From NCBI GenBank assembly GCA_036012755.1, contig DASCPX010000059.1, positions 129,870 to 193,869 of the forward strand: a stretch of 64,000 bases of DNA, read 5' to 3'. The stretch comes from Myxococcota bacterium. Lineage in GTDB: Bacteria; Myxococcota_A; UBA796; CAJQPC01. The stretch's first letter is position 1. Each line of letters starts with the position of its first letter. Below are positions 5,938 through 21,495 of the stretch, piece by piece. Position numbers and translations under genes: made by a program. Under the pieces are notes generated by a model, which saw only the letters and a program-made list of their open reading frames with translations, was not told the origin of the DNA and ran no database searches.

Positions 5938-6271
5938 GGGGGTCCTCCGGTGCGCGCGGAACGTAGCCGCCCCCCGGAACCTCTGCTACGGACCACGAAT
6001 GGTGATCCAGGAGGTCCAGATAGTCCAAATACCGAGGATACCCGCACTCAAAGACAGGTTGAAAGCCGCATATGGCGTGATAGAAATGGGACATGGACTG
6101 TCGACACGGAATGCCCCTCGAGTCCGCGGGAATGAAGCTCGTGACCTGTCAGCTGAAGCAGCGCGGCGGGATGGCCGAGCGCATCAAGATCAAGCAGATG
6201 GAGCCCAAGCCGGCCCGACGGCCAGTGGAGTGCACCTACGCCCAGATAGACGAGCAGCACTTCTGTCCGTG

Positions 6272-6652
6272 CTACTCGGCGGGCGTTGCCTCGAGGTCGA
6301 GCGGTCCGCGCTCGACGGCGTAGCCGGCGGCCACCCAGGCTGCGGTCCCGCCGGCGACGTTCGTCGCCGTGAACCCCTCCGCGCCGAGGAGCTCCGTCGC
6401 CTTCGCGCTGCGACCGCCCGAGTGGCAGATCACGTGGACGGGCGTCTCCTTGTCGAGCTCGTCGAGTCGCTTGGGGAGCTGATCGAGGGGAATGTGCACG
6501 ATGCCGGGCACGCGAACCTCGATGATCTCCTTTTCGGTCCGGACGTCGAGCAAGACGGCGATCTCTCCAGCCTCTCTCTTCGCCTGGAGGGTGGCGATGT
6601 CGATCTCGGCGATGTCGGCCGCGGCGGCGACGGCGATGAGCCAGCTCAGCAT
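6272..6652 (-). CDS. Rhodanese-like domain protein with signal peptide
   Basis: LLDVRT..E, HIPL, active-site loop ICHSGGRS, NVAGGT..W. Confidence 0.9.
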   Translation of the reverse strand: MLSWLIAVAAAADIAEIDIATLQAKREAGEIAVLLDVRTEKEIIEVRVPGIVHIPLDQLPKRLDELDKETPVHVICHSGGRSAKATELLGAEGFTATNVAGGTAAWVAAGYAVERGPLDLEATPAE

Positions 6653-6714
6653 TGGGGACTCCACGTGGCGATTTCTTCATCGCCCGGCGGCCCCCGACCT
6701 GCCACTCTGGCCCC

Positions 6715-7797
6715 ATGCCGGACTACGCCGAAAGGGAACAGACCCCCGCGCTGAGTTCGACGAAGGTCGTCGCCAGCGATGTCGAGGTCGACGAGTCGAA
6801 CAGCGCGATCGCAGAAGAGGTCCCCGGCGCCTCCGACGGAGGCCTGGCCAACTACCAGTCGGCGCTGGGCAGCTGGCTCGGCGGTGAGCTCTACGACGCC
6901 GTCAGCCCGCACCTCACGATGGACAAGCTCAGCGGCTATGCGACCGATGGGCTGAACTCGGTCCTGAAGCTGCTCGGCGAGCAGCTCAACAACATCGGCG
7001 AGTCCGACGAGGCCGCGGTCGAGGCCTTCGCAGAGGCCCTGGCCAACGTCGAGATCCCGGAGCTGGAGAAGAAGTTCGACCTGGGCAAGGGCTTTTCGGC
7101 CTCTGGCGGCGTGAAGCTCGGACGCATCCGCGACATCGCGCTGGAGCAGATCAAGGCCAAGCTCGAGTACGCCTCTGGCCCGCTGATCACAGCGATGCAG
7201 GTGGAGCACTCCGAAGACGGCGGCACGAAGGGCACCGGCTCCGACTCGCCGGCGGTCAACGCCCAGGTGAAGCGGGTCGACGGAAGCCTGACCACCATCA
7301 ACGGGGTGAAGTACGACGCGGAGACCGGGCGCCTGTCGACCGACATGAGCCTGGTCCACTCCAAGGACGGCCTGACCCTCGGCGGCAGCGGGGAGCTCGA
7401 CCAGAAGGGCATCTCGCAGGCCAGACAACTTGTACGCCCCGGCATAATCAATGGTCCCATACCGGACTTGAGCGGCGGTGATGAAAGGTACACCTTGCTC
7501 TGTGAACTCGGCGACTTTCGGGTGATTAGCCCCGTGGTTTCCGTCCTTCAGGTCATCCAGCAAACCCCAGCGCAGACACTCCGCGACAGCAAAAAAGTTC
7601 CATGTTTGTGGGATACGAAACCGTTCCATATACGCAGGCATTTCCACATGTTCTGGGACGCCTCGACGTGTGGCACAAGGACCTTCTGCCTTGAGCCTCT
7701 CCAGCAGCACACTCGCAGGCTCATCGCTCGCATCCTGCGGCACGAGCCGCCCGCGCACGGCGAGTTGCCACCCGCACGACCGCCCCGTGGGAGCTGA
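6715..7797 (+). pseudogene. Hypothetical protein interrupted near 7420; reading frame continues into foreign sequence
   Basis: Host-like codon usage up to ...GELDQKGISQ, then an abrupt switch to AT-richer DNA that is antisense hsdS. Confidence 0.65.
7421..7770 (-). pseudogene. hsdS: Type I restriction-modification specificity subunit fragment
   Basis: QLAVRGRLVPQDASDEPASVLLERLKAE conserved block, then IPQTW and DGNHG..PK..F...GVPFITA (TRD start). No proper start codon; cut off inside the TRD. Confidence 0.85.
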
Positions 7798-7812
7798 AGA
7801 GGGCTGAGTCCC

Positions 7813-7850
7813 GCTCCTGAATCTTGGACACACCAGGGACACAACAAAGC
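7813..7850 (+). repeat. Direct repeat copy 1 (38-bp core; weaker similarity extends about 7806-7888)
   Basis: GCTCCTGAATCTTGGACACACCAGGGACACAACAAAGC; 37/38 identical to 8766-8803. Confidence 0.92.
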
Positions 7851-7890
7851 AGCCATTCCCCGCAATTAGCAGGCACTGGCCATCATTTCG

Positions 7891-8634
7891 CTACATGGCA
7901 CACGCACTCATATCCGCGGCGACTTCAAATGAGAATCTGGTGCCCCCGGGTGTGTCGCCCATATGATACGACATCAGCTGGTAGGCCTCGACATCCGCTT
8001 TGATGACCCCCCATAGCCAACCGATGAATCCTCCGTACTCATCCTCGTCCTCAATCACGATCGCAATCGCGAATTCCGTGGACTTGATCGCAAGGGCCAT
8101 GGTCTCCAAGACCACGGCCGGAGCATCTTGCTCCACAGCTTTCGAGAAGTAGACCCAACTGAGCTTGTACAAAGCATAGTTGATCACATTGCCGTCCCCA
8201 CCGAGTGTCGACGCCGCCGTTTCGTAATCCGAGACGAGCCGAACCCACTCCTCGTCCCAGCCTATCAACTCCGCACTCCCAGCCAGAGACCCTGTTGACC
8301 TGGCTTGAGCTTCCACCGCCTGCTGCACCGCCTCGTCCTCCGTCATGCCCTCGGGAATACGGAAGTCGCAATGGGCCAGTCCGATCCTGAGCGAGGCTAC
8401 AAAGCAGTCTTCCTCCGCGAGGTCTGGGTCAATCTCGTAGTTCCTGAGACAAGTCAGGGCGGTGTTGTGTCTCTCGGCAGCCTCGAGCAGGGCCGAAGTA
8501 TCCGTTGGCGAGTCGCTTCTGGTCGGCTCGTCGAGCCGCGAGGCGGAATCGCGGACGGCGTCTGTCTTGTCGGTATCGTTGATGGAGGGACAGGCGACAA
8601 GCAGAAGGAAGAAGGGTAGAACTCTCATGGTCAT
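7891..8634 (-). CDS. Hypothetical lipoprotein of foreign composition
   Basis: MRVLPFFLLLVAC lipobox; AT-richer codons; lies between the two direct repeats. Confidence 0.75.
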   Translation of the reverse strand: MTMRVLPFFLLLVACPSINDTDKTDAVRDSASRLDEPTRSDSPTDTSALLEAAERHNTALTCLRNYEIDPDLAEEDCFVASLRIGLAHCDFRIPEGMTEDEAVQQAVEAQARSTGSLAGSAELIGWDEEWVRLVSDYETAASTLGGDGNVINYALYKLSWVYFSKAVEQDAPAVVLETMALAIKSTEFAIAIVIEDEDEYGGFIGWLWGVIKADVEAYQLMSYHMGDTPGGTRFSFEVAADMSACAM

Positions 8635-8765
8635 TCCTGGCGTCAGGTGGGATGGAGTGGTTTTCGTGCGAAATCCGAGCGAGTGTAGGAGTTTCCTATT
8701 TCGGAGTCAAACAAAGGCAAGTTGGATCCTTGGATTCTTCGCGGTGGTCATTGACGCCCGAGTCG

Positions 8766-8803
8766 GCTCCTGAATCTTGGACACACCACGGACACAACAA
8801 AGC
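8766..8803 (+). repeat. Direct repeat copy 2
   Basis: GCTCCTGAATCTTGGACACACCACGGACACAACAAAGC; contains tandem GGACACA, resembling integrase arm-type sites. Confidence 0.92.
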
Positions 8804-8916
8804 CGACATTAGGCGGTATTGGCGAGCATTAGCCACCACTGCCCGAAACTACAAGCCCCGGTGATCACAGGCGAAACACCCTAAATACCTGTAATCACGA
8901 CCCCTGGGTCAGGGTG

Positions 8917-8931
8917 CCGCCGCCTCCACCA
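8917..8931 (+). mobile_element. Putative att site: duplicated 3' end of tmRNA (ssrA)-like RNA
   Basis: CCGCCGCCTCCACCA without the upstream T-arm GGTTCGA. Preceded by the dyad GTGATCACAGG...CCTGTAATCAC (8861-8898) and followed by a hairpin. Confidence 0.6.
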
Positions 8932-8937
8932 TTTTTC

Positions 8938-8970
8938 TGCTAAACCCTCGGATTTCCGGGGGTTTACGCA
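8938..8970. terminator. Stem-loop after the att-like fragment
   Basis: TGCTAAACCCTCGGA-TT-TCCGGGGGTTTACGCA imperfect inverted repeat flanked by T-rich tracts. Confidence 0.6.
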
Positions 8971-9521
8971 TTTGGGGGATGGCTTCTGTCCATCCTGGTG
9001 GTCGAACCACTCCTGCTGGCTCCAGATGGGCTCGTCCATGCCGTCGCCGTCGAGGTCGATGGCCACCACGTCGTCGACGCTGCCCTCCAGCTCCAGGACC
9101 GGCTCGGTCCAGCCCTCCTCCACCGAGGAGCCCGGCGCCTGGAGGAGGTCGTCCCCCAGGTTCCACCCGGTGTCCTCCGGCACGGCCGTGTCGATCGAGG
9201 GGTCGCTGTCGACCGGAGAGTCGCCGGCGACGATGCCCGGGGGCTGGTGCGAGATGCACGCCGCCGAAGGGCAGGTCGCCGAGGTGTAGACCGGCGACAC
9301 GTCCCCCGGAGGCAGCGCGTCGGGCCCGTCGCAGCCGAGCACCAACAGCAGCATCAGCAGGTCATGACGTCGATGTAGCCGCCGGCGGCGCAGCACACGA
9401 GCGTGTTGTCGGTGGTCTCGTTGATGATGCGCCTCATGTGTCGTCCCGTGGCCACTCTGGCCAGCTCGTCGTTGGTGCGCCGAGCCCGACCCCCGCGGTG
9501 GGACACAGCCGCAGGTCGAGT

Positions 9522-9560
9522 ATCGACCATCGACCATCGACCATCGACCATCGACCATCG
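9522..9560. repeat. Heptamer tandem repeat (ATCGACC)x5.5
   Basis: Perfect intergenic repeat read directly from the sequence. Confidence 0.95.
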
Positions 9561-9677
9561 GCGGGTTTTTTGCCAGCAGAATGTCAAGCCCGGGGGTCAG
9601 GCCCCGACATGTGACGCCGGTGTGACATGGAAACGCCGGTGATCACAGCCCCTTGCGCCGGGTCAGACCGTGACTGC

Positions 9678-10652
9678 CTAGTAGACGTTGTACCTCGCCC
9701 GGTTTCGTTCGTGCTCGGCGGCGTTGACCGCCGGGTGGAGGTTCCCCTCGCCGTCGTGGAGGTAGTAGTAGTAGTCGCTCTCCACGGGAGCAGACGCTGC
9801 CTGCAGCGAGGGGAGCGCCGGGTTGCCGATGGGTGTCGGCGGGAGCCCCTTGCGCTCGCGGGTGTTGTAGGCGTCGCCCGGGTCCCTGAGCTGTCGCAGG
9901 AAGGCCTTGCGGTCGTTCCAGTTCTCCAGCGTGTAGCGCGAGGTCGCGTCGATCCCGAGCTGCCAGCCCTCGTCGAGGCGCTTCCAGATGATGCCTGCCA
10001 CCAGCGGGCGGTTCGTGGGCTTCGGCTCCTCGCGCTCGAGCATCGAGGCGACGATGACGACCTCGTAGAGATCCCGGGATCCGAGCTCGGCGTCCTGTCC
10101 CCAGGTCCGCCAGAAGAGATCGAGCTGGCGCTGGATGAGCTCCTCGGCCGTGAAGCCGCTCTCTGGGACGTTGTAGGTCTCCGGCATCAGGAAGCCCTCG
10201 AGCGAGCGGAGCCCGTCGATCTCGAAGGGCAGGTCGAAGCGAGCGGGGTCCTTCGCGGCCGCCGTGTACTCCCCGGCGACGAGCCAGCCGTCCTCTGCCA
10301 GCGCCTCGTCGATGTCGCGGATGCGCCAGCCCTCCACCACGGTGAATGGGACCTCGTCCGCCATCGGCACACCGCAGAGGGTCTCCATGATCTCGGGGTA
10401 GGTCATCGAGCGCGCCAGCTCGAACTTGCCAGCCTTGAGGCAGGAGCCCGCGGAGCGTGACTTCAGGTAGTAGCGCCAGCTCACGTCGTCGTGGATCAGG
10501 CCCTCTTCGAGCAACGCCGGGCCCAGGCCGCGGGCAGAGGAGCCAGACGGCACCTCGACGATCACGGTCTCCGTGTCGCTGGCGTCGACCGGGGTGTCGA
10601 CCTTTGTGTCGAGCACGAAGCAGGAGCAGAGGAGCATCCACATGAGTCGCAC
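9678..10652 (-). CDS. mltG: Endolytic transglycosylase MltG (YceG family)
   Basis: LKAGKF, TVVEGW, LEGFLMPETY, ASMLEREE (catalytic Glu), LGIDAT, YNT..KGLPPTPIGNP, YYYY. Confidence 0.95.
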   Translation of the reverse strand: MRLMWMLLCSCFVLDTKVDTPVDASDTETVIVEVPSGSSARGLGPALLEEGLIHDDVSWRYYLKSRSAGSCLKAGKFELARSMTYPEIMETLCGVPMADEVPFTVVEGWRIRDIDEALAEDGWLVAGEYTAAAKDPARFDLPFEIDGLRSLEGFLMPETYNVPESGFTAEELIQRQLDLFWRTWGQDAELGSRDLYEVVIVASMLEREEPKPTNRPLVAGIIWKRLDEGWQLGIDATSRYTLENWNDRKAFLRQLRDPGDAYNTRERKGLPPTPIGNPALPSLQAASAPVESDYYYYLHDGEGNLHPAVNAAEHERNRARYNVY

Positions 10653-11699
10653 CTATTCCGTCATCAAGAGCTTGCGGTAGCGCTGATCACCTTCGACCGC
10701 GTCGAGGCGGCGGAGGTCCTCGATCCCCGAGAGATCGCGAAGCTCGGGCAGCGCCTCCAGGTGGAGTGTGCTGATCTCGACGAGGTCCTCGAGGCCATCG
10801 AGCGAGGTCAGCTCGGGGATCCCAGCGAGCGAGAGTCGGTTCAGCCGCGCGAGCCGTGGACCCCTCAGGGATCTCAGCGAGGGCATGCCGACGATCTCCA
10901 ACGTGTCACCGACGTGGACGAGCCCGTCCAGGAAGCGGAGGTCGCGATTGGCGAGATCGCGCAGGCTGAGGTCACCGTCGACCCTCGTCAGGCGCCCGAG
11001 ATCGATGGTCCCGGACAGACCGCTCAGCCGCACGTCGCCCTCGACGAGGACGAGCTTGTCGAGCTGGACGTAGGCGGAGCCCAGGTCCTGGAGGGTCACC
11101 TCGGAGGCGGCGTAGAGGTCGACCGACAGCTGTCGGAGGCGGGGGGCCTCCGCGACGACGAGGCCTCCGGAGAGCTCCGGCATCGTGAGCTCGACGTCCT
11201 CCAGGACGGGGTTTCCGACGAGGCTCAGGCGAGAGGTCGAGAAGCCCTCGAGCCGGACCTCCCGCAGCGCCGGCATGCCCTCGATCTCCAAGGCAGCGGC
11301 GGAGCGCAGGCACTCCAGCTCCGAGAGGTCGACGAGCTCCGGGATGCCGACGAGGCGCAGGGTGCCGCTGAGCTCGCCGTAGCGCTCGGCGAACTCGGAC
11401 AGCGCATCGCTCGAAGAGAAGACGAGGTCACCCACGAAGAGCCCGCGCTCGTCGCAGGCCAGCGGGGTCTCCCCGGTGTCTCCGGTGTCGTCGCCGAGGT
11501 GCTCGCTGTCCAGGAAGTAGCCGGAGTCCAGGGGTTCGCTGTCGTGGAGGGGCTCGCCGGTGTCTGCGCTGTCGAGGAAGGCGGTGTCCGCCGTGTCCGC
11601 CGTGTCCGCCGTGTCCGCCGTGTCTGCCGTGTCCGTGGCGGTCTCGGCGAGGGCGGCACCCGCCAGCGCGAGGACGAAGAGAGGAAGGAGGCGCTTCAT
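10653..11699 (-). CDS. Secreted receptor-L-domain/leucine-rich-repeat protein
   Basis: Signal MKRLLPLFVLALAGAALA, DTA-repeat linker, then LxxLxxL..V.G.L.I repeats. ATG at 11699 overlaps the MATE stop. Confidence 0.8.
   Translation of the reverse strand: MKRLLPLFVLALAGAALAETATDTADTADTADTADTADTAFLDSADTGEPLHDSEPLDSGYFLDSEHLGDDTGDTGETPLACDERGLFVGDLVFSSSDALSEFAERYGELSGTLRLVGIPELVDLSELECLRSAAALEIEGMPALREVRLEGFSTSRLSLVGNPVLEDVELTMPELSGGLVVAEAPRLRQLSVDLYAASEVTLQDLGSAYVQLDKLVLVEGDVRLSGLSGTIDLGRLTRVDGDLSLRDLANRDLRFLDGLVHVGDTLEIVGMPSLRSLRGPRLARLNRLSLAGIPELTSLDGLEDLVEISTLHLEALPELRDLSGIEDLRRLDAVEGDQRYRKLLMTE
11584..11635. repeat. Coding 9-bp tandem repeat (GTGTCCGCC)x~5.8
   Basis: Encodes (DTA)n on the minus strand. 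Confidence 0.9.
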
Positions 11700-13045
11700 G
11701 CCTGAGCTCCAGGTCTGGCCCATCGACCCTGGCGGTACGCGATGGTTCCGACCAGTGCCTTGACGACGAAGGAAAGAGGGAAGGCTGCCCAGATGCCGGC
11801 TATGCCCATGTTCAGGGTGAACCCGAGCACGTAGCTGAGCGGAATCTGGACCAGCAGGGTGGCGAAGGCGTTGATCGACAGGGAGATGTCGGTGCGCCCG
11901 GAGCCCGAGAACGCGCTCCCGTAGGCGAGCCAGACGCCCACGGGCGGCATGGACAGGGCCAGCATGAGGATCCATGTGAGCGTCGCTTCGCCCAGCGGGG
12001 TGTCCGCCGAGACGTCGAAGATGGTGAGGATCGGGGTGTCGAGGGCCCAGAGCAGGATGCCGAGGGTGCTCATGACGCCGAAGCAGAGGGTCATGGCGGC
12101 CCGCACGATCCGCCGGGCCTCCGCGACCGAGTCCGCTCCGAGCGCGTTCCCGACCATCGCCGCCGCGGACTGGCTGATCGCGAGACCCGGGACGAAGGCC
12201 AGGGCCTGGACTCGCAGGCCCACCCCGTGGGCGGCCACCGCGACCTGGTCGATGCGCGACAGCATGGCGATGATGCTCAGGAAGCCAGCGTTGAGCACGA
12301 TCATGTCCAGGGCGGCGGGGCTGCCGACCCGGACCAGGTCTCGCGTGAGCCGGCCGTCGATCCGCGCCATGCGCAGCCGGAGCGTGACCCCGGGGACCGC
12401 GCCCTTGCGGATCGCCACCACCATCGCGACCACGGCCAGGGCCTGGGCCAGGAGCGTGCCGTATGCCGCGCCCTGGACTCCCAGGGACGGCAGGCCCCAG
12501 TGTCCGAGGATCAGGCCGTAGTTGAAGACGACGTTGGCGGCGTTCATGCCCAGCGCGATGACGAAGGCCAGGCGCGTGTTGCCCACCCCGCGCAGCACGG
12601 CCCCAAACAGGATGTTGAGGTAGTTGAAGACGACACCCACCAACAACGGCAGGAGGTACGCCAGCGCCAGCTCCTGGTGGCTGCCCCGCGCCCCGAGGAC
12701 GTAGAGCAGGCCAGGCGCGGCGAGGGTTCCGACCACCGCGACGCCCACCCCGAGGAGCACGGTCAGCTGGGTCGACTGGTGGAGGATGTGGATGACCCGC
12801 TCGTGGTCCCTCGCGCCGTGGGCCCTGGAGACGAAGGCGACGCTCCCGACGGTGAGCCCGAGCATCGCCACCATCAGCAGGAAGAGCAGCTGGAAGGCGT
12901 AGGACATGCCCGCGAGCGCGGGCTCCGGATCGGGCAGGCGCCCCACCATCGCCGTGTCGACGAAGAGCGCCAGCACATTGAGCACGTTGAGCCCGATGAC
13001 CGGTAGAGCCAGATCGAGAAGCCTGGCCGGGACGGATGACCGCAC
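11696..13045 (-). CDS. MATE family efflux transporter
   Basis: LALPVI..VDTAMVGRL, LRGVGNTR, NVVFNYGLI..GLPSLGVQGAAYGT; about 12 TM helices; GTG start at 13045. Confidence 0.93.
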   Translation of the reverse strand: MRSSVPARLLDLALPVIGLNVLNVLALFVDTAMVGRLPDPEPALAGMSYAFQLLFLLMVAMLGLTVGSVAFVSRAHGARDHERVIHILHQSTQLTVLLGVGVAVVGTLAAPGLLYVLGARGSHQELALAYLLPLLVGVVFNYLNILFGAVLRGVGNTRLAFVIALGMNAANVVFNYGLILGHWGLPSLGVQGAAYGTLLAQALAVVAMVVAIRKGAVPGVTLRLRMARIDGRLTRDLVRVGSPAALDMIVLNAGFLSIIAMLSRIDQVAVAAHGVGLRVQALAFVPGLAISQSAAAMVGNALGADSVAEARRIVRAAMTLCFGVMSTLGILLWALDTPILTIFDVSADTPLGEATLTWILMLALSMPPVGVWLAYGSAFSGSGRTDISLSINAFATLLVQIPLSYVLGFTLNMGIAGIWAAFPLSFVVKALVGTIAYRQGRWARPGAQA

Positions 13046-13088
13046 GCTGCGCGCATAACGTCGTCCGGTCTGGCGTAGGCTCTGTGTC

Positions 13089-14399
13089 GTGGCCGGGGTT
13101 CCGCTGACACCTGCCGAGCGGGCCGCTGCAAAGCCTGTGCTGCTCGCGCTGCCCCCCGTCGAGGGGCTCCCGCCTGTCCCGCGGCTGCTGGTCGCGGACG
13201 GGCTGGCGCTGGCCGGGCGCAAGTACGCCAGCGGTGACCAGGAGCCCAACGTCGCCGGCGACCTCTGGCTGATGACCGAGGGCTGCGTGGCGCTCCGGAG
13301 CACGGGTCACTTCCACCGCGTTCTCCGCGGGCCCACCGTGCTCTCCCCCAGCGACGTGGGCTTCGGCGGGCCCGACATCCTCGTGCTCCAGGAGGGCACG
13401 GTGCTCTGCCGGATGGCGGTCGCCAACGCCCTCCTGTTCAACGCGATGAGCTCCGGGTGGGCCCACGGCATGCTCGACTCGGCGGTCGCCGATCTCGAGG
13501 CCACGCGCGCGGCGCGAGAGGCGACCTTCGCCGGCATGGCGGACTACTTCGAGGCCTCTGGCGCGCTCATGAAGGGGCCCTACCGGAGCACCACCGTGCG
13601 GCTCGTGTTCGTCGTCGTCGAGGACGATCCGCCCCCGCCGCTTCCGTGGAACGTGTTCCCCGCCCTGCCTGGCAGCAAGCGGTGGATCCGGGCCTTCTCG
13701 CACTACACGAACTTCAAGGCCGCCGATGCACCATCTGACTACGAGTACCAGGAGTTGGCCCAGCTGATCCCCTGCGTCACGACCTCGGGCCTGGGCTTCC
13801 ACAGTGGCCGGATGTTCCCGGACGGGGTGATGCCGACCGCGGTCGGTCGCGAACTCTACGCCTTCCCGAAGCGCTGCGGCGAGGTCTGGATGGACGACCA
13901 TGGGGGTGGGGCGGCGTTCCAGGGCAAGTTCATGTTCCACGCCGAGTGGAGCGGCGGCACGGTCCAGCCGGTCCACGAGTGGATGTCGGACATGACCGAG
14001 GCCTTCCTCCCTGGCTGGGCTGGCCGGGTGCCGTCGGGGTTCATGGGGTTGTTCACCCGCCTGACCGGGCCCGTAATCTCCCGGATCGGGATTCCCCTGC
14101 GCGTCTTCACTGAGCGGAAGAGCATGGACCGCTCGCCGATGACGCCGCTCGGGAACAACGAGATGGTCAGGGCGCCCTTCCGTTTCACCATCAAGGAGGC
14201 CCGCTCGCTGAGTCTCGACTGGCTCTACGACGTGAACCGCTTCTCGCTGAAGGGGATCGCGGCTTTCGAGGTCGAGGTCGACATCAACCTCCACGAGTCC
14301 TACGCGGTCCGAGATCGGACAGGGCTGTTCCGGGCCCTCCGAAACCCCTGGCTCGCGGCCCAGGTCCCCTTTCGGACCTTTCTCGAGCTCCTGCCGTGA
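13089..14399 (+). CDS. cNMP-binding-like + acetoacetate decarboxylase (ADC)-fold protein, paralogue 1
   Basis: N-terminal LWLMTEGCVAL strand; GPY; YQELAQLIPC; MFPD..PTAVGRELYAFPKR, comparable to Adc GRELSAYPKK. Confidence 0.8.
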   Translation: MAGVPLTPAERAAAKPVLLALPPVEGLPPVPRLLVADGLALAGRKYASGDQEPNVAGDLWLMTEGCVALRSTGHFHRVLRGPTVLSPSDVGFGGPDILVLQEGTVLCRMAVANALLFNAMSSGWAHGMLDSAVADLEATRAAREATFAGMADYFEASGALMKGPYRSTTVRLVFVVVEDDPPPPLPWNVFPALPGSKRWIRAFSHYTNFKAADAPSDYEYQELAQLIPCVTTSGLGFHSGRMFPDGVMPTAVGRELYAFPKRCGEVWMDDHGGGAAFQGKFMFHAEWSGGTVQPVHEWMSDMTEAFLPGWAGRVPSGFMGLFTRLTGPVISRIGIPLRVFTERKSMDRSPMTPLGNNEMVRAPFRFTIKEARSLSLDWLYDVNRFSLKGIAAFEVEVDINLHESYAVRDRTGLFRALRNPWLAAQVPFRTFLELLP

Positions 14400-15559
14400 G
14401 CGCGCCGGCCATCCTCTTCACCTTTCCGCCCTTCACGAGCGTGGACGTCTCGCACTGGAGCACCTTTGCGGACCTCTGCATCGAGGTTCCCTTTGGTCCC
14501 GGCGAGGTCCACCAGCTCGAGGAGGACTACGTCTGCGTCCTCGTCTCCGGCAAGGCGGTGCTGCATCGCTTCGCCGACACCGAGCGCCTCGTGGAGGGAC
14601 CCATCGTGCTCGATGTCGTCCATCCAGGGCTCGGGCGCCCGGCGCGCTTTCACACCCTGGAGCCAGGAGGGACGCTGGTCTGGGTGTTGCGCAGCGACCT
14701 GGACGCCTACACCGACGTGAGCGAGCGCCTCGCCGTGACCCTCGAGCAGACTCGGGAGGAGCGGGCCGGCCTCGCAGCGCTGGGGGATCGCCAGACCTGG
14801 GTGGGGCCCTCGACCGGCTCGGTCCTTGCTGACGAACCCTATGTCGGGGAGCTCGACTACATCCTCATCGGCTTGCCCGGTGTGCTCACCGAGCTGGTCC
14901 CCTCGCTGCCCCGGGGGCTGGTGCCGCTCTTCGACGACGAACGGGTCGTGCTGGTCTTCGGCATCCATGGGCCGTCGTCTCTGTTCTCCGGCCACAATCC
15001 TCCGGCGGAGGGTGGCTACGGTGCGGTGCTGGTTCCGGCCTCCTGGTCTGGAGAAAAGGGGCTGTACTGCGCCAGTGTGTGGACCGGGCAGCTGATGTAC
15101 GTCCACGTACTGCGCGAGCTCTATGGGCTCCTCGGCCGGGAGGGAGAGGTCTACGATCCGAAGATCCCCTCTTACCCCCAGCGCCTGATGGCCTGGGGTC
15201 GGCGGCTGCGACTGAAGGCGGAGTGGCTCAAGGAGGTCTCCCCGGATCTGACCCACTGGGAGGACATGGTGGGCATGCCCTGGGACCCCACGCGCCTGCC
15301 GCTCCAGTGGTGCTTCGAGCGCCATGGCTTCGGAGTCGGTCCCGGCTTCTTCCGGGGCTGCAAGGGGGACCAGGAGCTCAGCCTCTTGAGCCTCGAGGAG
15401 CTCGAGATCCCCAGAGTCGAGAGCATGGACGGTGTCACGCTCGTCGATCCGGTGGAGCCGATCTACGGCTTCCGCCTCCAGGCTGACTTCCGCCTCGCCG
15501 ATCCTGTTCCCCTCGACCGTCAGATCCTCGCCATCACCGCGGCCTGGCTGGTCGGATGA
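14396..15559 (+). CDS. cNMP-like + ADC-fold protein, paralogue 2 (catalytic Lys absent)
   Basis: PPF..V, VLVSGKAVL, EPY, GLYCASVW, LRELYGLLGR; GTGA overlap with paralogue 1. Confidence 0.75.
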   Translation: MSAPAILFTFPPFTSVDVSHWSTFADLCIEVPFGPGEVHQLEEDYVCVLVSGKAVLHRFADTERLVEGPIVLDVVHPGLGRPARFHTLEPGGTLVWVLRSDLDAYTDVSERLAVTLEQTREERAGLAALGDRQTWVGPSTGSVLADEPYVGELDYILIGLPGVLTELVPSLPRGLVPLFDDERVVLVFGIHGPSSLFSGHNPPAEGGYGAVLVPASWSGEKGLYCASVWTGQLMYVHVLRELYGLLGREGEVYDPKIPSYPQRLMAWGRRLRLKAEWLKEVSPDLTHWEDMVGMPWDPTRLPLQWCFERHGFGVGPGFFRGCKGDQELSLLSLEELEIPRVESMDGVTLVDPVEPIYGFRLQADFRLADPVPLDRQILAITAAWLVG

Positions 15560-16866
15560 CCTTCCCCACCGTCCCAGCCGACTACCTCGCCCAGCTCGGC
15601 GAGCACCCGCTGTTCCAGGATCTCGATCCCCTCCTGCTCGCCGATCTCTCCCAGGTCGTCCTCTTGGATGCAGGCGCGCCCTACCCGGTCCCCACCGAGC
15701 GCATCGTCCTGGTCATCGCGGGACGCGTCGCCGTGTCGAACGCCGACCGCTTCGAGCGCCTCGCCGGGCCAGAGGACGTCATCGGCCTCATCCGTCCCGG
15801 GCACGACCTCACCCTCGAGGCCCTGGAGGACTCTGCCCTCCTGCTGCTCGGTCCCATCGAGCTCGGCGGAGTGTTGGACCAGCGGAGGCGCACCCTCATC
15901 CACAACGTCACCACCCTCGCCGAGCTGGAGGTCCATCGCATCCAGCTCGAGCGGCGCGAGATCGAGGCCTCCCTGGAGGACTTCTTCGACCCGACCACCG
16001 GCGAGGCCGTGCAGGCGCCCTACGTCGCGCTGGGCGCCAAGCTCCTGATGGTCGTCGCGCGTGACACCCAGTTCAGCAAGCTCCCGCCTGGGCTTCCGGG
16101 GATACCGCTCTCCGACGGCCGCTTCCTCCTGACCTTCTGCAAGTTCCCCCACTTCGGGCCCGAAGGGGGCATCGGAGCTTCCTACGAGGAGTGCATCGTG
16201 CTCGTCCCCTGCTGGGATCTCGGCGGAGGGGGGCCAGGTCTCTACTGTCCGGAGGTCTGGCCGGAGAGCATGATGGCGGTCATCGTCGGGAGCGAGCTCT
16301 TCGGCTTCGCCAAGCGCTACGGGCGCGTCACGCTGAGGGACGACCACGCCCACGTCGACATCGACGGGACCCAGGCCTACGTCCACTGGACCGACGAGAA
16401 GGAGATCCCTGTCCACGAGTACCTCGGCGAGCTCGTCGGGGCGATCCTGGGAGAGGACGACCCGGAGGGCCGGCTCATGGAGCGGCTCACGAAGCTCGGC
16501 GCCCGTCTCACGGCCGGGCCGATGATCCGGAGCGGCACTGCGCTCCCGCTCTACGTTCGTCGGAGCGTCGGTCGACGGGACCTCGGCACGGTGGACTGGG
16601 ACGTCGACGAGCTCGCCTGGGTGCCCTTCGATGTGCTCGGGTACAGCCGGCTCGCGGAGCTCGGCGGCCTCGATCTCAGGGGCTGGGGTCGGTTCACCTT
16701 CGTCAAGCCGGAGCGTGCCTTCCTGGCCGAGGTCGACATGGCGATGTACGCGGCACGGCCGGTCCGGGACCTCGTAGACGGTCCCGTGGCAAAGATGCGC
16801 TCGCAGTGGATGCGGTGGGGTGTCAGAAAGGAGAGGTTGTGGGCGACATTCCGTCGATCCTCCTAG
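15556..16866 (+). CDS. cNMP-like + ADC-fold protein, paralogue 3
   Basis: LGEHPLFQDL, LVIAGRVAV, GPEDVIG, LEALEDSALLLL; APY, YEECIVLVPC, GLYCPEVWPES..AVIVGSELFGFAKR; ATGA overlap. Confidence 0.82.
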   Translation: MTFPTVPADYLAQLGEHPLFQDLDPLLLADLSQVVLLDAGAPYPVPTERIVLVIAGRVAVSNADRFERLAGPEDVIGLIRPGHDLTLEALEDSALLLLGPIELGGVLDQRRRTLIHNVTTLAELEVHRIQLERREIEASLEDFFDPTTGEAVQAPYVALGAKLLMVVARDTQFSKLPPGLPGIPLSDGRFLLTFCKFPHFGPEGGIGASYEECIVLVPCWDLGGGGPGLYCPEVWPESMMAVIVGSELFGFAKRYGRVTLRDDHAHVDIDGTQAYVHWTDEKEIPVHEYLGELVGAILGEDDPEGRLMERLTKLGARLTAGPMIRSGTALPLYVRRSVGRRDLGTVDWDVDELAWVPFDVLGYSRLAELGGLDLRGWGRFTFVKPERAFLAEVDMAMYAARPVRDLVDGPVAKMRSQWMRWGVRKERLWATFRRSS

Positions 16867-17906
16867 GGCTGAGGGGCGCCCTCCCGGCGCTGGTCGCCCT
16901 GCCCGAGGACTCGGTGCTCGATGCCGACGCCAACCTGCTCCTGCACGAACTCGGCGTCGGGGACGAGCTGGACGTGGATCCCGACCGCATCGCCCTGCTC
17001 TCGAGCGGCCAGCTCGCGCTCTACTCGGCGGACCGCTTCGATCGCATCTGCGCGGGGCCCGACGTCTGCACGTGGTGGAGCGACGTCCAGACCCGGCTCG
17101 AGGCCCTGTCCGCCGCCGTCGTGGTGTCTTTCGATCGACAGGCCGTGGACTCCCACCGGAGCACCGTCGATTCAGAGGTCGTCGCTCGCTTCGCCGCCGC
17201 CGCGAACGCCCTCGCCGATCAGCGGCTGCTGCGGGACCGTCTACGCGAGCGCTTTCGCTACGGCGGGGACGACCCCTACCTGCGGGTGCGGGAGCCCTAC
17301 ACGGGTCGCATCGACAGCCGGCAGTTCTTCGTCCGCCCGAAGTCCTGGCCGTGGCGCGGCAAGCACCCGGACCGCGCCCTGTTCACGGTGGCCGAGTACG
17401 AGCAGGTGGGCAGCGCGGGGAGCGACTCAGGCGAAGGCACCGACTACCGCCAGGTGACGCTCTGGGTGCCCATGGACGACGGGCTGCGGCTGGTCATGGC
17501 CTGGGCCGACGACGCTCGCGCCGTGCGGGTCGTGCGCGAGCTCTTCGGTTTCAAGACCCGCTTCGGCCGCATCGAGCCGCTCGACGACTCCAGCCTCATG
17601 GTCGCGGTCGATGGCCAGCCGCGTCTCATCGCGAGGGGGGTCCTCGGCGCGTCCATCCCCGGGCCGGCCTGGCGTAGCGACGTCGGCCTCCCCGAGGGCA
17701 CGCTGCGGCTCTACTCTGGCGAGGCGCGGAGCCGCTGGACGGGCCAGCCGCCGCAGTCGGCCTTCAGGTTGAACGAGGGGCGGGCGTGGCGGCTCCAGGA
17801 CACCTCGATCGAGCTCCTCGAGACGGGCTTCGGGGCGGGCTTCGAGGTCATCAGCGCCACCGCGATCCAGGGCCGGTTCCAGATCGTCCCAGTGCAGAAC
17901 AGCTGA
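16839..17906 (+). CDS. cNMP-like + ADC-fold protein, paralogue 4 (degenerate active site)
   Basis: GTG at 16839 after AAGGAG; LLSSGQLAL, AGPDVC, LEALSAAVVV; EPY, YRQVTLWVP, VRELFGFKTR. Confidence 0.75.
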   Translation: MGDIPSILLGLRGALPALVALPEDSVLDADANLLLHELGVGDELDVDPDRIALLSSGQLALYSADRFDRICAGPDVCTWWSDVQTRLEALSAAVVVSFDRQAVDSHRSTVDSEVVARFAAAANALADQRLLRDRLRERFRYGGDDPYLRVREPYTGRIDSRQFFVRPKSWPWRGKHPDRALFTVAEYEQVGSAGSDSGEGTDYRQVTLWVPMDDGLRLVMAWADDARAVRVVRELFGFKTRFGRIEPLDDSSLMVAVDGQPRLIARGVLGASIPGPAWRSDVGLPEGTLRLYSGEARSRWTGQPPQSAFRLNEGRAWRLQDTSIELLETGFGAGFEVISATAIQGRFQIVPVQNS

Positions 17907-19493
17907 GTGTCCCCGGTCGGTCACAACATCGAGATGAGGCCTGGCGACGCCATCGGCTTCTTCCGTCCGGACCACGGGCCCATCGACCTCGTCGCGATCG
18001 AGCCGAGCCGCGTCTTCGCATTCGACTACGAGGACCTGCTGCGGGAGCAGCCCGAGCAGGCTGCACGGATGCGAGCGCTCTTCTTTGACGAAGCCGTGGA
18101 GCTCCGTCGCCGTCGCCGTCGCCTGGAGCTCGGCCTTGCGAGCTACCTGGTGAGGCCTGGAGCCCGGATCATGCCGGGGCCCTATCACTCCCGCGACGTG
18201 CGCATGGACCTCTTCCTGGTGGACCTCGTGGAGCCCGTCGACTGTCCCGAGTACATGGTCCGGGTCTTCGAGCGCAGGGCGCTCATGGTCGCCGCCAGCT
18301 TCCCCAGCTTCGGCACCTCTGATCTCGTCGTGGATCCCTTCGTCTACGCGGAGATCGCCCTGTTCGTGCCGATGCTGCACCCCGCTCGGGGCCCGGTGTT
18401 GTACTGCCCGGAGCTCCGCCCGGACAACCTGATGGCGCTCGTCACCGGGCGCGAGATGCACGGCTTCCCCAAGCGCTTCGCCCAGGCGGTCCTGGCCGAG
18501 GATGATGGCCTGACCCTCTGCAGCCACCCGCGGCGCGGGCGCGTGCTCGCATGCATCGAGCGCTGGCTGGATGTCCCCGGGCACCTCGTGCTGGCTCGGG
18601 AGCGCCTCTGCCAGCCGGCCCGCTGGGGCCACTTCCGGGACGGGTCGTGGACCCAGAGGCCCCACCCCGAGTTGTTTCCGGATTGCCGCGAGCTCCTGCT
18701 GCTGCTCGATGGTCGGCTGGAGTTGGTGCTCGCCAGCCGAGGAAAGGGCCTCGGTGGATCCATCGATGGTGCCTTCGGCCTTCCGATCCGTGATGGCGCA
18801 GTCACCGTCGCCTCCTGGTGGCAGGTCCACGGCTTCCGCTCGGGTCCGCCCATCCGGCGCGTCGTCTTCAACCGACTGGCTTTCTCCTCCGGCGAGGCCA
18901 CTTGGCTGAGGAACACGAGGCTCGACGCGCTGTCCGGGTACTGGACTGAGCAGAAGGCGCTGGCTGCTGTGCGCATCGAGGGAAGGTGCAAGTGGATCCC
19001 CCAGCAGGATCCAGAACGTCCTCCCGACCGCCACCGCTTGAGGCATCCTTGGCGTCCTTGGAGGCACCGATGTTCCTTCTGCTGGCCTGTACGCAGCCCA
19101 CCGAGCGTGCGCCCTCCGATCCCCCGACGCTCGCGGCCATCGAGGGCGAGGACAACGGGATCACGACCCTGGCGGCGCAGGCGGTGGATCAGAGCCCCGA
19201 CTGGCTCGCCGACGATCTGCAGCTCCAGTTCGAGCAGCTCGACTCGACCGTCCAGGACGACCTCGCCGTGCTGCTCGTCGACCTCGACGATCCCTACCTC
19301 TACGACGAGGTGGCCTTCGCCATCGCGCACTCCTCGCCAGAGGATCTCACCAGCGGCGGCTTCGTCCCGGGTCTGCTCGTCGAGAACGCCCAGTGGATCT
19401 ACGACATCGAGCCGCTGTTGGACTACGTCACCCTCGTCGAGTACGGCGAGCCGGGCGACCCGGACCACTACACGACCACGAGCTACGTCGTGA
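17907..19493 (+). CDS. cNMP-like (partial) + ADC-fold protein, paralogue 5; probably rearranged
   Basis: RPGDAIG..LVAIEPSRVFAFD, GPY, YAEIALFVP, GREMHGFPKR. Protein-like sequence ends near 19070, but the frame runs about 420 bp into the next gene. Confidence 0.7.
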   Translation: MSPVGHNIEMRPGDAIGFFRPDHGPIDLVAIEPSRVFAFDYEDLLREQPEQAARMRALFFDEAVELRRRRRRLELGLASYLVRPGARIMPGPYHSRDVRMDLFLVDLVEPVDCPEYMVRVFERRALMVAASFPSFGTSDLVVDPFVYAEIALFVPMLHPARGPVLYCPELRPDNLMALVTGREMHGFPKRFAQAVLAEDDGLTLCSHPRRGRVLACIERWLDVPGHLVLARERLCQPARWGHFRDGSWTQRPHPELFPDCRELLLLLDGRLELVLASRGKGLGGSIDGAFGLPIRDGAVTVASWWQVHGFRSGPPIRRVVFNRLAFSSGEATWLRNTRLDALSGYWTEQKALAAVRIEGRCKWIPQQDPERPPDRHRLRHPWRPWRHRCSFCWPVRSPPSVRPPIPRRSRPSRARTTGSRPWRRRRWIRAPTGSPTICSSSSSSSTRPSRTTSPCCSSTSTIPTSTTRWPSPSRTPRQRISPAAASSRVCSSRTPSGSTTSSRCWTTSPSSSTASRATRTTTRPRATS

Positions 19494-20887
19494 GCGACGC
19501 CGACGGGGAGCTCTTCGAGGTCGAGATCGATCCGGAGGTCTACTACTGGTTCGTCGTCCACCCCAGCATCGAGGACGAGAGCCCCTGGTACGTCGAGGCC
19601 TGGGACGAGTGCAAGCGCAGCTCCCTGGAGTGTCCCTCGAGCCCCGAGGAGGGCGGCACCTTCTGGCGTCACTTCCTCTGGGAGGGGGCCCGGGACACCT
19701 GTCCCGAGGACGACCAGTGCCCGGTGCTCGATGAGATCCTGCCTGGTCTGGAGGTGGCTTGGACCAGCGGCTCCTACGCAGACGAGGCCGGCGCCATCAG
19801 CCAGATCGCCCGCTTCATGCTCTACAACGACGAGGACTTCGGTCGCTGGTTGACCTTCGGCGCATACGACGAGCGCAGCATCCAGCCCAACCGGATCTAC
19901 GGCCTGGGTCGCGGGAACTGCGGCGAGTGGGCCGACATGACGACCGCGCTCACGCGCACTGCGCTCATTCCCAACTACAACGTCGCCCCCGCGTCCTGGG
20001 ACCACACCTGGAACGAGTTCTACGACGCCTACGAGGACCGCTGGGTCGCATGGGAGCCCGTCAACTTCTGGCTCGACCACGCCTACGGGGCTCCCTACAG
20101 CAACTACGCCACCCGCGGTGACTCACAGGTCTTCAACGTCACGACCCAGTACATCGAGGACACCTTCACGATGCAGTACGTCGTGACCGACGCCGACGGG
20201 CTGCCTGTCGACGGGGCCTCTGTGGCGCTCATCACCCCCTGGGACGATGGCTGGGGCTACGCCGGCGAGACCTCCACCGACATCCACGGTGTCGCGACCT
20301 TCGAGGTTCGAGCCGAGTCCGACTACGCCTTCCGTGTCGATCACCCGACCCTGGGTGGCTACCCCGACGAGAGCTTCACCTACGGCTCCCAGGGCATCGC
20401 GATCGGCGAGACGGACATCACCGAGGTGAGCCTGCCCGGCTCCCGCGAGCCCTTGCCGGTGCGCACCCTGGAGCCCCTGGACGTCGCCGCCCCGAGCGCC
20501 GCGTTGTCCATCTCGGGCACGGTCGACTCCTCCCGGGTGTACACCACCTCCTGGCGCTTCGGGGAGCAGTTCTCCGTCGAGGACGAGCCCATCGAGGTGA
20601 GCTGGTTCCTGACCGACGACCTCGGCTACGAGGCCTTCCGGGCCGGCGCGGACCACGTCGTCTTCGCCGAGGGCAGCCTGGGCGAGGAGGCGAGCCTGGA
20701 GCTGGCCTTCGCCAAGAGCTGGAGGCTGGTCTTCGTGAACGAGTCGGTCGTCTCCACCGCAGCGGTGGGTGAGATCGAGCTCGGGGTCTCGCCGACGGAG
20801 GATGCCCGCTGGGAGGGCTCGCTCGAGCACGGTGAGCTCCTGCGGTTGTTGCCTGGCGAGCACGTCGCCGTGGCGCTGGACAAGTGA
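19070..20887 (+). CDS. Transglutaminase-like domain lipoprotein
   Basis: GGAGG RBS, MFLLLAC; GRGNCGEWAD (Cys), DHTWNEFY (His), WVAWEP; followed by a carboxypeptidase-regulatory-like Ig domain (DADGLPVDGASV..TDIHG). Confidence 0.85.
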   Translation: MFLLLACTQPTERAPSDPPTLAAIEGEDNGITTLAAQAVDQSPDWLADDLQLQFEQLDSTVQDDLAVLLVDLDDPYLYDEVAFAIAHSSPEDLTSGGFVPGLLVENAQWIYDIEPLLDYVTLVEYGEPGDPDHYTTTSYVVSDADGELFEVEIDPEVYYWFVVHPSIEDESPWYVEAWDECKRSSLECPSSPEEGGTFWRHFLWEGARDTCPEDDQCPVLDEILPGLEVAWTSGSYADEAGAISQIARFMLYNDEDFGRWLTFGAYDERSIQPNRIYGLGRGNCGEWADMTTALTRTALIPNYNVAPASWDHTWNEFYDAYEDRWVAWEPVNFWLDHAYGAPYSNYATRGDSQVFNVTTQYIEDTFTMQYVVTDADGLPVDGASVALITPWDDGWGYAGETSTDIHGVATFEVRAESDYAFRVDHPTLGGYPDESFTYGSQGIAIGETDITEVSLPGSREPLPVRTLEPLDVAAPSAALSISGTVDSSRVYTTSWRFGEQFSVEDEPIEVSWFLTDDLGYEAFRAGADHVVFAEGSLGEEASLELAFAKSWRLVFVNESVVSTAAVGEIELGVSPTEDARWEGSLEHGELLRLLPGEHVAVALDK

Positions 20888-21495
20888 TCCTGGTCCTGGT
20901 CGCTTGTGTCGAGACCGTCGAGGACCTCGACAGCGCGGTCACCGACAGCGAGCCCGACAGCGACACGGACGCCGATGCCGACGCCGATGCCGACGCGGAT
21001 GGCGACAGCGACAGCGACACGGACTCGCCCTATGCCGGAGTGCTCCTGGAGCCGCCCCTGGCGCCCCCGGAGTTCTCTGTGGAGAACCAGGACCGGGAGT
21101 CGCGAGATGCCGACTGGCTCGCTGGCCACGGCACGGTCCTGTGGTTCTTCCGGAACGCTGGCTCCTCGTGAACGAACGACGGTTGCGGGTACCGCGACCT
21201 CCAGAGTGACTTCGACGCCCTGGGCGTGAGCATCGTCGCGGTCGGCTTCGCGGAGCCCGACGCCACCCGGGCCTGGGCGGACCAGCTCGGCTACGACTAC
21301 GAGATCTGGACCGACGCCGACCACGTCATCGCGGAGCACTACGACGTGCTCGTCGACTGGGAGGAGGTCCCGATGCGTCACGCCTTCATCCTGGGCGAGG
21401 ACGCTCATGCGGTGATCTGGCACGAGGGCGCGGTGTCCACTGGCGCCGATCCCGAGGCCGTGCTCTCCGACTGCGAGCAGCTCTTCGGCCAGTGA
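20884..21495 (+). CDS. Selenocysteine-containing peroxiredoxin (BCP/AhpC-TSA family) lipoprotein
   Basis: ORFs 20884-21171 and 21226-21495 share one frame. Reading through TGA 21169-21171 gives VLWFFRNAGSS-U-TNDGCGYRDLQSDFDALGVSIVAVG, matching BCP FYP..TPGCT.EAC.FRD. Confidence 0.87.
21181..21199 (+). promoter_or_regulatory. Bacterial SECIS element
   Basis: GGTTGCGG-GTA-CCGCGACC hairpin starting 9 nt after the UGA, with a G-led loop; resembles the E. coli fdhF SECIS GGUUGCAGGUCUGCACC. Confidence 0.78.

What the first reader, a model, noticed from the sequence alone, without database searches (positions are those of the whole stretch)
13089..19070. Array of five diverged cNMP-like + acetoacetate-decarboxylase-fold paralogues
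Seen: five consecutive overlapping or abutting genes share one architecture. Each has a Crp-like N-domain (e.g. HPLFQDL, LVIAGRVAV, GPEDVIG), a helical linker, an xPY motif, a Y..(V/I)P strand and a (G)RE(L/M)(Y/F/H)(G/A)xxxR motif. They are strongly diverged from each other. Known: GRExxxxPK is the Schiff-base Lys signature of the ADC superfamily. The canonical cNMP phosphate-binding GE...R appears to be missing. Inference: a ligand-regulated, possibly hetero-oligomeric Schiff-base enzyme or sensor assembly of unknown substrate. It is transcribed divergently from a MATE exporter 43 bp away, which might export its product.
Basis: partly seen in the sequence, partly recalled or inferred. Interest (0 to 1): 0.82.

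Follow-up and report, generated by a model that had tools for sequence, protein, structure and literature searches.

The report
Paired enzyme–pseudoenzyme cNMP-ADC fusion array
A marine bacterium carries an operon of related two-domain proteins (a cyclic-nucleotide-sensor-like fold joined to a Schiff-base-enzyme fold) in which copies that keep the catalytic residues alternate with copies that have lost them; they likely work as enzyme/pseudoenzyme pairs on an unknown, probably lipid-like, carbonyl compound, and the fifth gene is a broken remnant.

Summary
The array is real, but it is not five equal enzymes. All five genes belong to one family: cNMP-binding fold, helix, acetoacetate-decarboxylase (ADC) fold. 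g1, g3 and g5 keep the Schiff-base Lys, the YxE Glu and (g1, g3) a ~45-residue helical insert; g2 and g4 lack all three. Lys and Glu go together in 88 of 89 units. g5 is a deleted remnant of a ~790-aa Lys+/Lys- tandem protein, so the ancestral array was three Lys+/Lys- pairs; such pairs are also fused elsewhere. The Lys- copies are conserved like the Lys+ ones (dN/dS 0.38-0.50). The phosphate-binding cassette is degenerate, so cAMP/cGMP binding is unlikely here. Single-copy relatives lie beside desaturase-like FAD enzymes in 36 of 67 loci, once fused to one, often with STAND kinases/cyclases. The family is expanded in this genus (9-13 matches per genome) and is decaying in two of three genomes. 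Eight literature searches found no description. Best reading: heterodimeric Schiff-base enzymes acting on an isoprenoid/carotenoid-type carbonyl (inferred; binding and substrate untested).

The parts
11696..13045 (-). MATE family transporter, divergent from g1 (43 bp gap if start 13045)
   Evidence: Pfam MatE E 7.5e-48; TIGR00797 over cut-off; same position in L106 (82%) and L021 (67%), and beside a different Lys+/Lys- pair in L033 (66%)
13089..14399 (+). g1: degenerate cNMP-fold + C-helix + ADC domain, catalytic type (YxE Glu; Lys261 at 13869-13871; helical insert; basic amphipathic C-tail)
   Evidence: orthologues L106 62%, P0108 68%, P0068
14396..15559 (+). g2: same architecture, pseudoenzyme type (no Lys, no YxE Glu, short insert)
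   Evidence: hhalign to family profile 97.3%, E 1.9e-11; 60% to L106 orthologue, dN/dS 0.44
15556..16866 (+). g3: catalytic type (Glu212, Glu247, Lys253 at 16312-16314; insert 284-328)
   Evidence: Pfam ADC 4.7e-9; AF2 model pLDDT 92.5; Foldseek 3c8w 2.6e-13; VIA Z 21.7 to 3bh2 and 12.5 to 3mdp
16839..17906 (+). g4: pseudoenzyme type (Thr in the Lys column, Gln for the YxE Glu, short insert)
   Evidence: hhalign 97.9%, E 3.7e-13; L106 orthologue 55% over 209 codons, dN/dS 0.50
17907..19070 (+). g5: remnant of a ~790-aa tandem (Lys+ unit then Lys- unit); N-terminal part deleted, ~360-aa internal deletion at about 18515/18516, Lys189 kept
   Evidence: orthologues P0131/P0132/P0042, 779-793 aa, 67-76%; missing middle not found elsewhere in G000; same sequence in a second assembly L105; same N-terminus in P0140
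19071..19493 (+). Stop-loss read-through tail of g5 over the next gene, in another frame
   Evidence: orthologues end at HPW..HR; the window has TGT at 19071-19073; relative P0141 shows a similar read-through
19070..20887 (+). Downstream co-oriented transglutaminase-like protein, probably not part of the system
   Evidence: Pfam Transglut_core E 2.3e-4, under the cut-off; absent at this position in L021

Best explanation
The locus is an operon-like array of paralogous cNMP-fold/C-helix/ADC-fold proteins in which catalytic-type copies (g1, g3, first half of g5) alternate with copies lacking the catalytic residues (g2, g4, second half of g5); these likely assemble as enzyme/pseudoenzyme heterodimers and would carry out Lys Schiff-base aldol, retro-aldol or hydration chemistry on a hydrophobic, probably isoprenoid/carotenoid-derived, carbonyl that is likely made or used by a desaturase-like FAD enzyme encoded elsewhere. 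Shown: the architecture, the Lys/Glu/insert pattern, conservation of the Lys- copies, the breakage of g5 and the family's neighbourhood with FAD enzymes. Inferred: pairing through the C-helix and ADC dimer surface, membrane association through the amphipathic insert and tail, the substrate class, and the partnership in trans. In these copies the N-domain probably acts as a dimerisation or allosteric module rather than a cAMP/cGMP sensor.
For: Folds: (the ADC-part profile aligns YxE and GRExxGFPK with 3c8w and 3bgt). Lys and Glu: 72 units have both, 16 neither, 1 Glu only, of 89 with the column filled (a hand-picked set of 90 units, many related). Insert median 45 aa in 72 Lys+ units vs 20 in 18 units labelled Lys-. 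Lys+/Lys- units are fused in P0131/P0132/P0042, P0145/P0090, G000 C43, L031, L032, and in reverse order in L035 and L036; they are adjacent genes in L033. In trees no Lys- copy of the array is sister to its Lys+ neighbour: the Lys- units group together (SH-aLRT 97; 99 with the mixture model), and g2, g4, g5b and P0101 still group (86) with the motif columns removed. This fits duplication of a pre-existing pair. dN/dS vs L106: g1 0.38, g2 0.44, g3 0.45, g4 0.50. FAD partner in 36 of 67 loci, with record titles from Myxococcota, Chloroflexota and others; nearest relatives are HpnE (below cut-off), phytoene desaturase 5mog and phi-carotenoid-synthase-type clusters. P0080 fuses FAD enzyme, cNMP fold and ADC. 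In Azospirillum the FAD+ADC module flanks an outer-membrane transport protein, and in Mycobacterium JS623 the FAD gene lies near a polyprenyl synthetase. G000 has an intact 515-aa homologue of the FAD partner (38%).
Against: No FAD gene is adjacent to the array or to any intact family copy in G000. The other FAD partner type survives in G000 only as pieces. The FAD enzyme's own reaction is unknown; all its matches are below curated cut-offs. With the motif columns removed the Lys- units split into two groups on an unresolved backbone, and the trees warn of long branches. The 67 loci include close kin and were selected by a Lys-containing pattern. The family is decaying in G000 and G002, so present function is not assured.
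Confidence: 0.45

Rival explanations
1. The proteins are sensors rather than catalysts. The ADC barrel traps a carbonyl signal as a Schiff base and passes the change through the C-helix and cNMP-like domain to partner signalling proteins (STAND kinases/cyclases); the many paralogues read different ligands.
For: Genus-wide expansion to 9-13 matches per genome against mostly 0-2 in the order resembles receptor families. All 11 loci with an AAA_16 STAND protein also hold the FAD gene, and 7 of 67 hold a class III cyclase. Cyclase or STAND neighbours recur in Mycobacterium, Rufibacter and Azospirillum FAD loci.
Against: The domain order (cNMP fold, helix, then output domain) is that of CRP and PycTIR, where the C-terminal domain is the effector (established knowledge). 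The second catalytic-type residue (YxE Glu) is kept strictly with the Lys. No STAND or cyclase gene is beside the array.
Confidence: 0.2
2. The array proteins are still switched by a cyclic nucleotide (possibly a non-canonical one) that binds the N-domain.
For: The family profile matches PKG/PKA/CRP/PycTIR cNMP domains strongly; 35 of 98 family rows keep an R[S/T]A-type cassette end; G000 has 4 class III cyclase matches, one with a stop, and 38 cNMP-domain matches.
Against: None of the five window proteins scores with PF00027. Their cassette is shortened and lacks both Glu and Arg, and it varies freely between orthologues.
Confidence: 0.12
3. The system has recently become dispensable in this lineage; g1-g4 are simply not yet hit by mutation and do nothing now.
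For: In G000, g5, C147, C70, C47 and the half-gene at C59:80879 are broken, and one FAD type is in pieces, while none of 77 control loci had a frame change. In G002, 5 of 8 family loci examined are split or deleted, including the orthologous array, against 2 of 42 flanking-gene rows.
Against: g1-g4 are full-length with intact overlaps and are recorded identically on 10-14 contigs. dN/dS is below 0.5, but this reflects the long path to L106 and not the last stretch.
Confidence: 0.15
4. Each paralogue works alone as a homo-oligomer, and the Lys- copies have a separate non-Schiff-base role (binding protein or scaffold).
For: ADC-family enzymes are homo-oligomers (the MppR-type homotetramer is mentioned in PMC7820114, passages read). 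Single-copy family members lack a Lys- partner gene.
Against: The repeated adjacency and in-frame fusion of Lys+ with Lys- units, in both orders, is hard to explain without pairing.
Confidence: 0.08

Closest known systems
ADC superfamily: acetoacetate decarboxylase (3bh2, 3bgt, 3c8w), Sbi00515 aldolase-dehydratase (4zbo/4zbt/6eej), MppR (4jm3), Swit_4259 (5upb)
   Same: Same fold over ~217 residues (Z 18-21.7); YxE and GRExxGxPK motifs align, with Lys in register
   Different: N-terminal cNMP-fold plus C-helix fusion; ~45-aa amphipathic insert and basic C-tail; Arg instead of the second Lys; dedicated Lys-/Glu- partner copies; far below the NCBIfam ADC cut-off (25.9 vs 150)
CRP/FNR-type and PKA/PKG cyclic-nucleotide-binding domains; PycTIR
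   Same: Jelly-roll domain plus long C-helix placed before an output domain
   Different: No HTH or TIR domain; output is an ADC domain; cassette Glu and Arg absent in the array; no adjacent cyclase
Unstudied FAD-oxidoreductase + ADC-family gene pair (Catenovulum, Azospirillum plasmid records; ESM Atlas clusters 'ADC/cNMP-binding', 80 members, and 'NAD(P)-binding protein' with ADC in 36%)
   Same: Same partner families; the cNMP-ADC architecture is already auto-named in the Atlas
   Different: Only automatic annotation; here the FAD gene is unlinked and the ADC gene is multiplied into Lys+/Lys- pairs

Membership tests
ADC superfamily | ADC beta-barrel/cone fold | tested here: met
   g3 model: Foldseek E 2.6e-13, VIA Z 21.7, rmsd 2.7 over 217 residues. 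g1 and g5 by Pfam, g2 and g4 by profile
ADC superfamily | Schiff-base Lys in GxPK motif and YxE Glu (g1, g3, g5) | tested here: met
   the catalytic role of these residues is recalled from established knowledge and from PDB titles (4zbt)
ADC superfamily | Schiff-base Lys and YxE Glu (g2, g4, second unit of g5) | tested here: not met
   Gly, Thr and Ala in the Lys column; Tyr, Gln and Ala/Gly in the Glu column
ADC superfamily | Schiff-base catalysis on a carbonyl substrate | not testable with these tools
   needs an assay
Acetoacetate decarboxylase proper (NF002614) | Score over the curated cut-off; Lys-Lys motif | tested here: not met
   g1 scores 25.9 vs 150, the others give no hit; the motif is K-R, where 3c8w and 3bgt have K-K
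cNMP-binding domain (PF00027) | Jelly-roll fold with C-helix | tested here: met
   model residues ~6-140, Z 9-12.5 to many cNMP domains; family profile E down to 1e-29 on PKG
cNMP-binding domain (PF00027) | Phosphate-binding cassette G-E...R-[S/T]-A | tested here: not met
   absent in all five; no PF00027 hit on them
cNMP-binding domain (PF00027) | Binds a cyclic nucleotide | not testable with these tools
   needs a binding assay
CRP/FNR transcription factors | C-terminal winged HTH | tested here: not met
   the C-terminal domain is ADC
Pycsar-type cyclase/effector system | Adjacent nucleotide cyclase gene | tested here: not met
   neighbours are MATE and a transglutaminase-like gene; the four cyclase matches of G000 are on other contigs. 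PADLOC was not searched

The most novel reading that the evidence does not exclude
The cNMP-ADC family is the switchable step of an undescribed pathway (STAND kinase/cyclase, cyclic-nucleotide-gated Schiff-base enzyme, desaturase-like flavoenzyme) that remodels carotenoid or other isoprenoid chains into a signal or membrane compound. In this genus it radiated into a dozen enzyme/pseudoenzyme heterodimers that traded nucleotide control for partner control, making the first ADC-fold pseudoenzymes, with a MATE exporting the product.
Probability: 0.22. Interest if true: 0.85.

Novelty: new variant of a known kind. Interest (0 to 1): 0.62.

Why it matters
Both folds are known, but I found no paper on their fusion, on ADC-fold pseudoenzymes, or on the ADC + desaturase-like flavoenzyme pair (open-access library only). 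The family (123 clusters at 50% identity) gives a testable handle on what the many unassigned 'acetoacetate decarboxylase family' proteins do. It is a candidate for cyclic-nucleotide control of small-molecule C-C chemistry in its single-copy members. It also offers a clean natural series of enzyme, pseudoenzyme, fused pair and decay within one genus.

Tried and rejected
Complex prediction g3+g4 gave no verdict (scores 0.19, 0.53, 0.06; partner folded without an alignment); it is not used either way. The single-sequence model of g4 was unusable (pLDDT 32). The AU tests of clades were not obtained (one search returned nothing; one search built the tree only), and the careful tree did not finish (one search gave the quick mixture tree). 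No RNA holder was listed. Contigs of four other runs laid on the region were short and, among the pieces shown, none bridged the g5 junction at about 18515; no joint was listed there, so read-level proof of the g5 deletions is missing. Assembly error as the cause of g5's state is judged unlikely, because L105 differs from the window at two other sites yet has the same g5 and P0140 has the same N-terminus. Against this, the 528-aa product is on record from 1 contig while g1-g4 are on 10-14, five alternative starts were not in the collection, and L105 may derive from the same sample. Read-through of the g4 TGA into g5 (same frame) was considered and set aside: g4 ends in a normal ADC C-terminal strand and g5's orthologues have their own N-terminus. 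No sigma-70 promoter or terminator was found at 12700-13400. phmmer of g3's ADC part alone found no PDB match; the profile did. No cNMP-ADC match in plasmids. Two primary ADC-family papers were not held, so residue roles are recalled. Earlier-findings searches by sequence and place were empty.
Full report
Observation. The window holds five co-oriented ORFs: g1 13089-14399, g2 14396-15559, g3 15556-16866, g4 16839-17906 and g5 17907-19493, divergent from a MATE gene. They are mutual paralogues at 22-36% identity in local alignments. Pfam ADC matches g1 (E 1.7e-6, just under cut-off), g3 and g5. g2 and g4 match a 92-sequence family profile across both domains (97.3% and 97.9%). An AF2 model of g3 built on that alignment has pLDDT 92.5 and pTM 0.91. 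Its residues ~143-408 match ADC-family structures (Foldseek best E 2.6e-13; VIA Z 21.7-18.0) and residues ~6-140 match cNMP-binding domains (Z up to 12.5). The architecture is therefore real.

Not five equal enzymes. A profile of the ADC part aligns the family's YxE and GRExxGFPK motifs with those of 3c8w and 3bgt; that this Lys forms the Schiff base is established knowledge, echoed by the title of 4zbt. g1, g3 and g5 keep Lys and Glu; g2 and g4 have neither. In a hand-assembled set of 90 units (tandem proteins cut in two; many units related), 89 had the Lys column filled: 72 carry both residues, 16 neither and 1 Glu only. Lys+ units also carry a helical insert (median 45 aa, n=72), amphipathic in g1 and g3, that units labelled Lys- largely lack (median 20, n=18). 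g1 and g3 end in basic amphipathic tails. The cNMP cassette is shortened and lacks Glu and Arg in all five; in the wider family 35 of 98 rows keep an R[S/T]A-type end and none met my strict pattern for both Glu and Arg.

g5 is a remnant. Its closest relatives are 779-793 aa (67-76% identity) and consist of a Lys+ unit followed by a Lys- unit. The window's g5 lacks most of the first ~57 residues and residues ~253-610 of P0131, and it has lost the stop after HPWRPWRHR, so it reads on over the next gene. The missing middle is not elsewhere in G000. A second assembly (L105) differs from the window at two other sites but has the same g5, and a short ENA product has the same N-terminus. Against this, the 528-aa product is recorded from 1 contig versus 10-14 for g1-g4, and read-level bridging was not obtained. 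The ancestral array thus reads Lys+, Lys-, Lys+, Lys-, (Lys+ Lys-): three pairs.

Conservation. L106 preserves LRR gene, MATE, g1, g2, g3 and the start of g4 intact at 54-61% for the array genes. Its g3 is P0008, which shares a longest-contig length with the full-length g5 P0042; likewise P0108, P0006 and P0131, so whole arrays in other species are inferred but were not seen as DNA. Simple NG86 dN/dS against L106 is 0.38 (g1), 0.44 (g2), 0.45 (g3), 0.50 (g4 part), 0.20 (MATE) and 0.47 (LRR gene); high GC3 probably inflates all of these. Lys+/Lys- fusion recurs in G000 C43, L031, L032, P0145 and P0090, in reverse order in L035 and L036, and as adjacent genes in L033; Lys+/Lys+ tandems also exist (P0013, L037). 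In trees 15 of the 18 Lys- units form one group (SH-aLRT 97, 90 rows; all 12 included, 99, 37 rows, mixture model, quick search), with long-branch warnings. With the motif columns dropped (24 rows) g2, g4, g5b and P0101 still group (86) apart from their Lys+ neighbours, but the Lys- set as a whole is unresolved. Duplication of an existing pair is the simplest reading (inference).

The wider family. phmmer found 123 representatives at 50% clustering; of 101 aligned rows 89 keep the Lys and all keep the GRE Glu. Many single-copy members score with both PF00027 and ADC, and the ESM Atlas has an automatically named ADC/cNMP cluster of 80 members, commonest Myxococcota. A pattern scan of genome contigs gave 67 loci, titled mostly Myxococcota, Deltaproteobacteria/Bradymonadia and Anaerolineae; the pattern demanded the Lys, and several loci are close kin. 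With profiles built from these same loci, 26 hold a ~520-aa FAD enzyme, 12 a ~690-aa one, and 36 either. Eleven hold an AAA_16 STAND protein (all 11 with a FAD gene) and 7 a class III cyclase (domains). The FAD genes are mostly directly adjacent. They are nearest to HpnE and phytoene/zeta-carotene desaturases, all below cut-off, to the 5mog structure, and to phi-carotenoid-synthase-type clusters by predicted structure. P0080 joins FAD enzyme, cNMP fold and ADC in one chain. In annotated plasmids the ~690-aa enzyme lies beside a stand-alone ADC protein (Catenovulum; Azospirillum, with an outer-membrane transport protein and a kinase-AAA_16 gene) or beside an adenylate/guanylate cyclase (Mycobacterium JS623, near a polyprenyl synthetase; Rufibacter).

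Expansion and decay. In the order, 29 of 154 genomes match the ADC-part profile; this genus has 9, 12 and 13 matches per genome, and the others have at most 5 and mostly 1. In G000, C43 (tandem) and C112 are intact, while C147 (stops, deletion), C70 and C47 (frame changes) are broken. C59:80879 is the Lys- half of the tandem that G001 has at the syntenic place. The ~690-aa FAD type survives in G000 only as pieces; the ~520-aa type is intact at C70. Of 77 control loci in G000 none showed a frame change and 5 had one stop in the alignment, which I did not inspect (one is the window's intact mltG ORF). In G002, 5 of 8 family loci examined are split or deleted, including the orthologous array (frameshifts in g1 and g2, a deletion joining g3 to g5, no g4), and a sixth gave only a partial match; 2 of 42 flanking-gene rows were broken. 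In G001 (73% complete) most copies are whole; L034 is frameshifted.

MATE. It is divergent from the array in the window, L106 and L021, and from a different Lys+/Lys- pair in G001 (L033 = L081). It was not seen in the other wider loci. A functional link is possible, but it is limited to close relatives.

Mechanism. Shown: architecture, residue pattern, conservation, fusion and neighbourhood. Inferred: the C-helix and ADC surfaces pair a catalytic subunit with a stripped partner; the insert and tail bring the enzyme to the membrane; the Lys forms a Schiff base with a hydrophobic unsaturated carbonyl for aldol, retro-aldol or hydration chemistry, as MppR does with pyruvate and imidazole-carboxaldehyde (PMC7820114, passages read); and a desaturase-like flavoenzyme acts before or after it. 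I give this 0.45. The rivals are a Schiff-base sensor (0.2), a recently dispensable relic (0.15), retained nucleotide gating (0.12) and independent homo-oligomers (0.08).

Novelty. Eight searches of the open library (listings only) found no paper on the fusion, on ADC pseudoenzymes or on the FAD+ADC pair. Subscription papers and supplements were not seen, and the two primary ADC-family papers were not held. The parts are known folds and the architecture is auto-named in a database, so I class it as a new variant of a known kind, interest 0.62.

Noticed in passing
window 20884-21495 (+): AhpC/TSA-family redoxin with an in-frame TGA at 21169-21171 (..NAGSS*TNDGC..), just before the Pfam-matched part; a likely selenocysteine codon. 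G002 has a ~199-aa ORF at the matching place after the sulfatase-like gene.
   Followed up: partly
G000:C147:43941-44930, C70:266918-268312, C47:41002-41874, C59:80879-82237: Further broken family copies in the same genome; several show deletions that join a Lys+ start to a Lys- end, as in g5.
   Followed up: partly
L101-L103 (about 4500-11100), L066, L071, L134, L135: Large STAND-type adenylate/guanylate cyclases or kinase-AAA-GAF-cyclase genes next to FAD + ADC modules across several phyla; may define a wider signalling-linked pathway.
   Followed up: partly
L052, L054, L056, L057, L064, L065, L070: A geranylgeranyl-reductase-superfamily flavoprotein (~400 aa) lies next to or near the cNMP-ADC gene, with the ~520-aa FAD gene in six of the seven loci.
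   Followed up: no
window 10653-11699 (-): Secreted-looking LRR protein with a low-complexity (ADT)n linker between MATE and mltG; syntenic in L106 and L021.
   Followed up: no
window about 6650-8900: Lower-GC stretch (0.57-0.62) with ORFs lacking Pfam hits and a 7-bp indel relative to L105; possibly an inserted segment.
   Followed up: no
L022/L039, L023/L051, L044, L046, L060, L061: In a related family of the same order the single cNMP-ADC gene sits convergent to a ~710-aa spermidine-synthase-domain gene, with no FAD gene in the fetched stretch.
   Followed up: no
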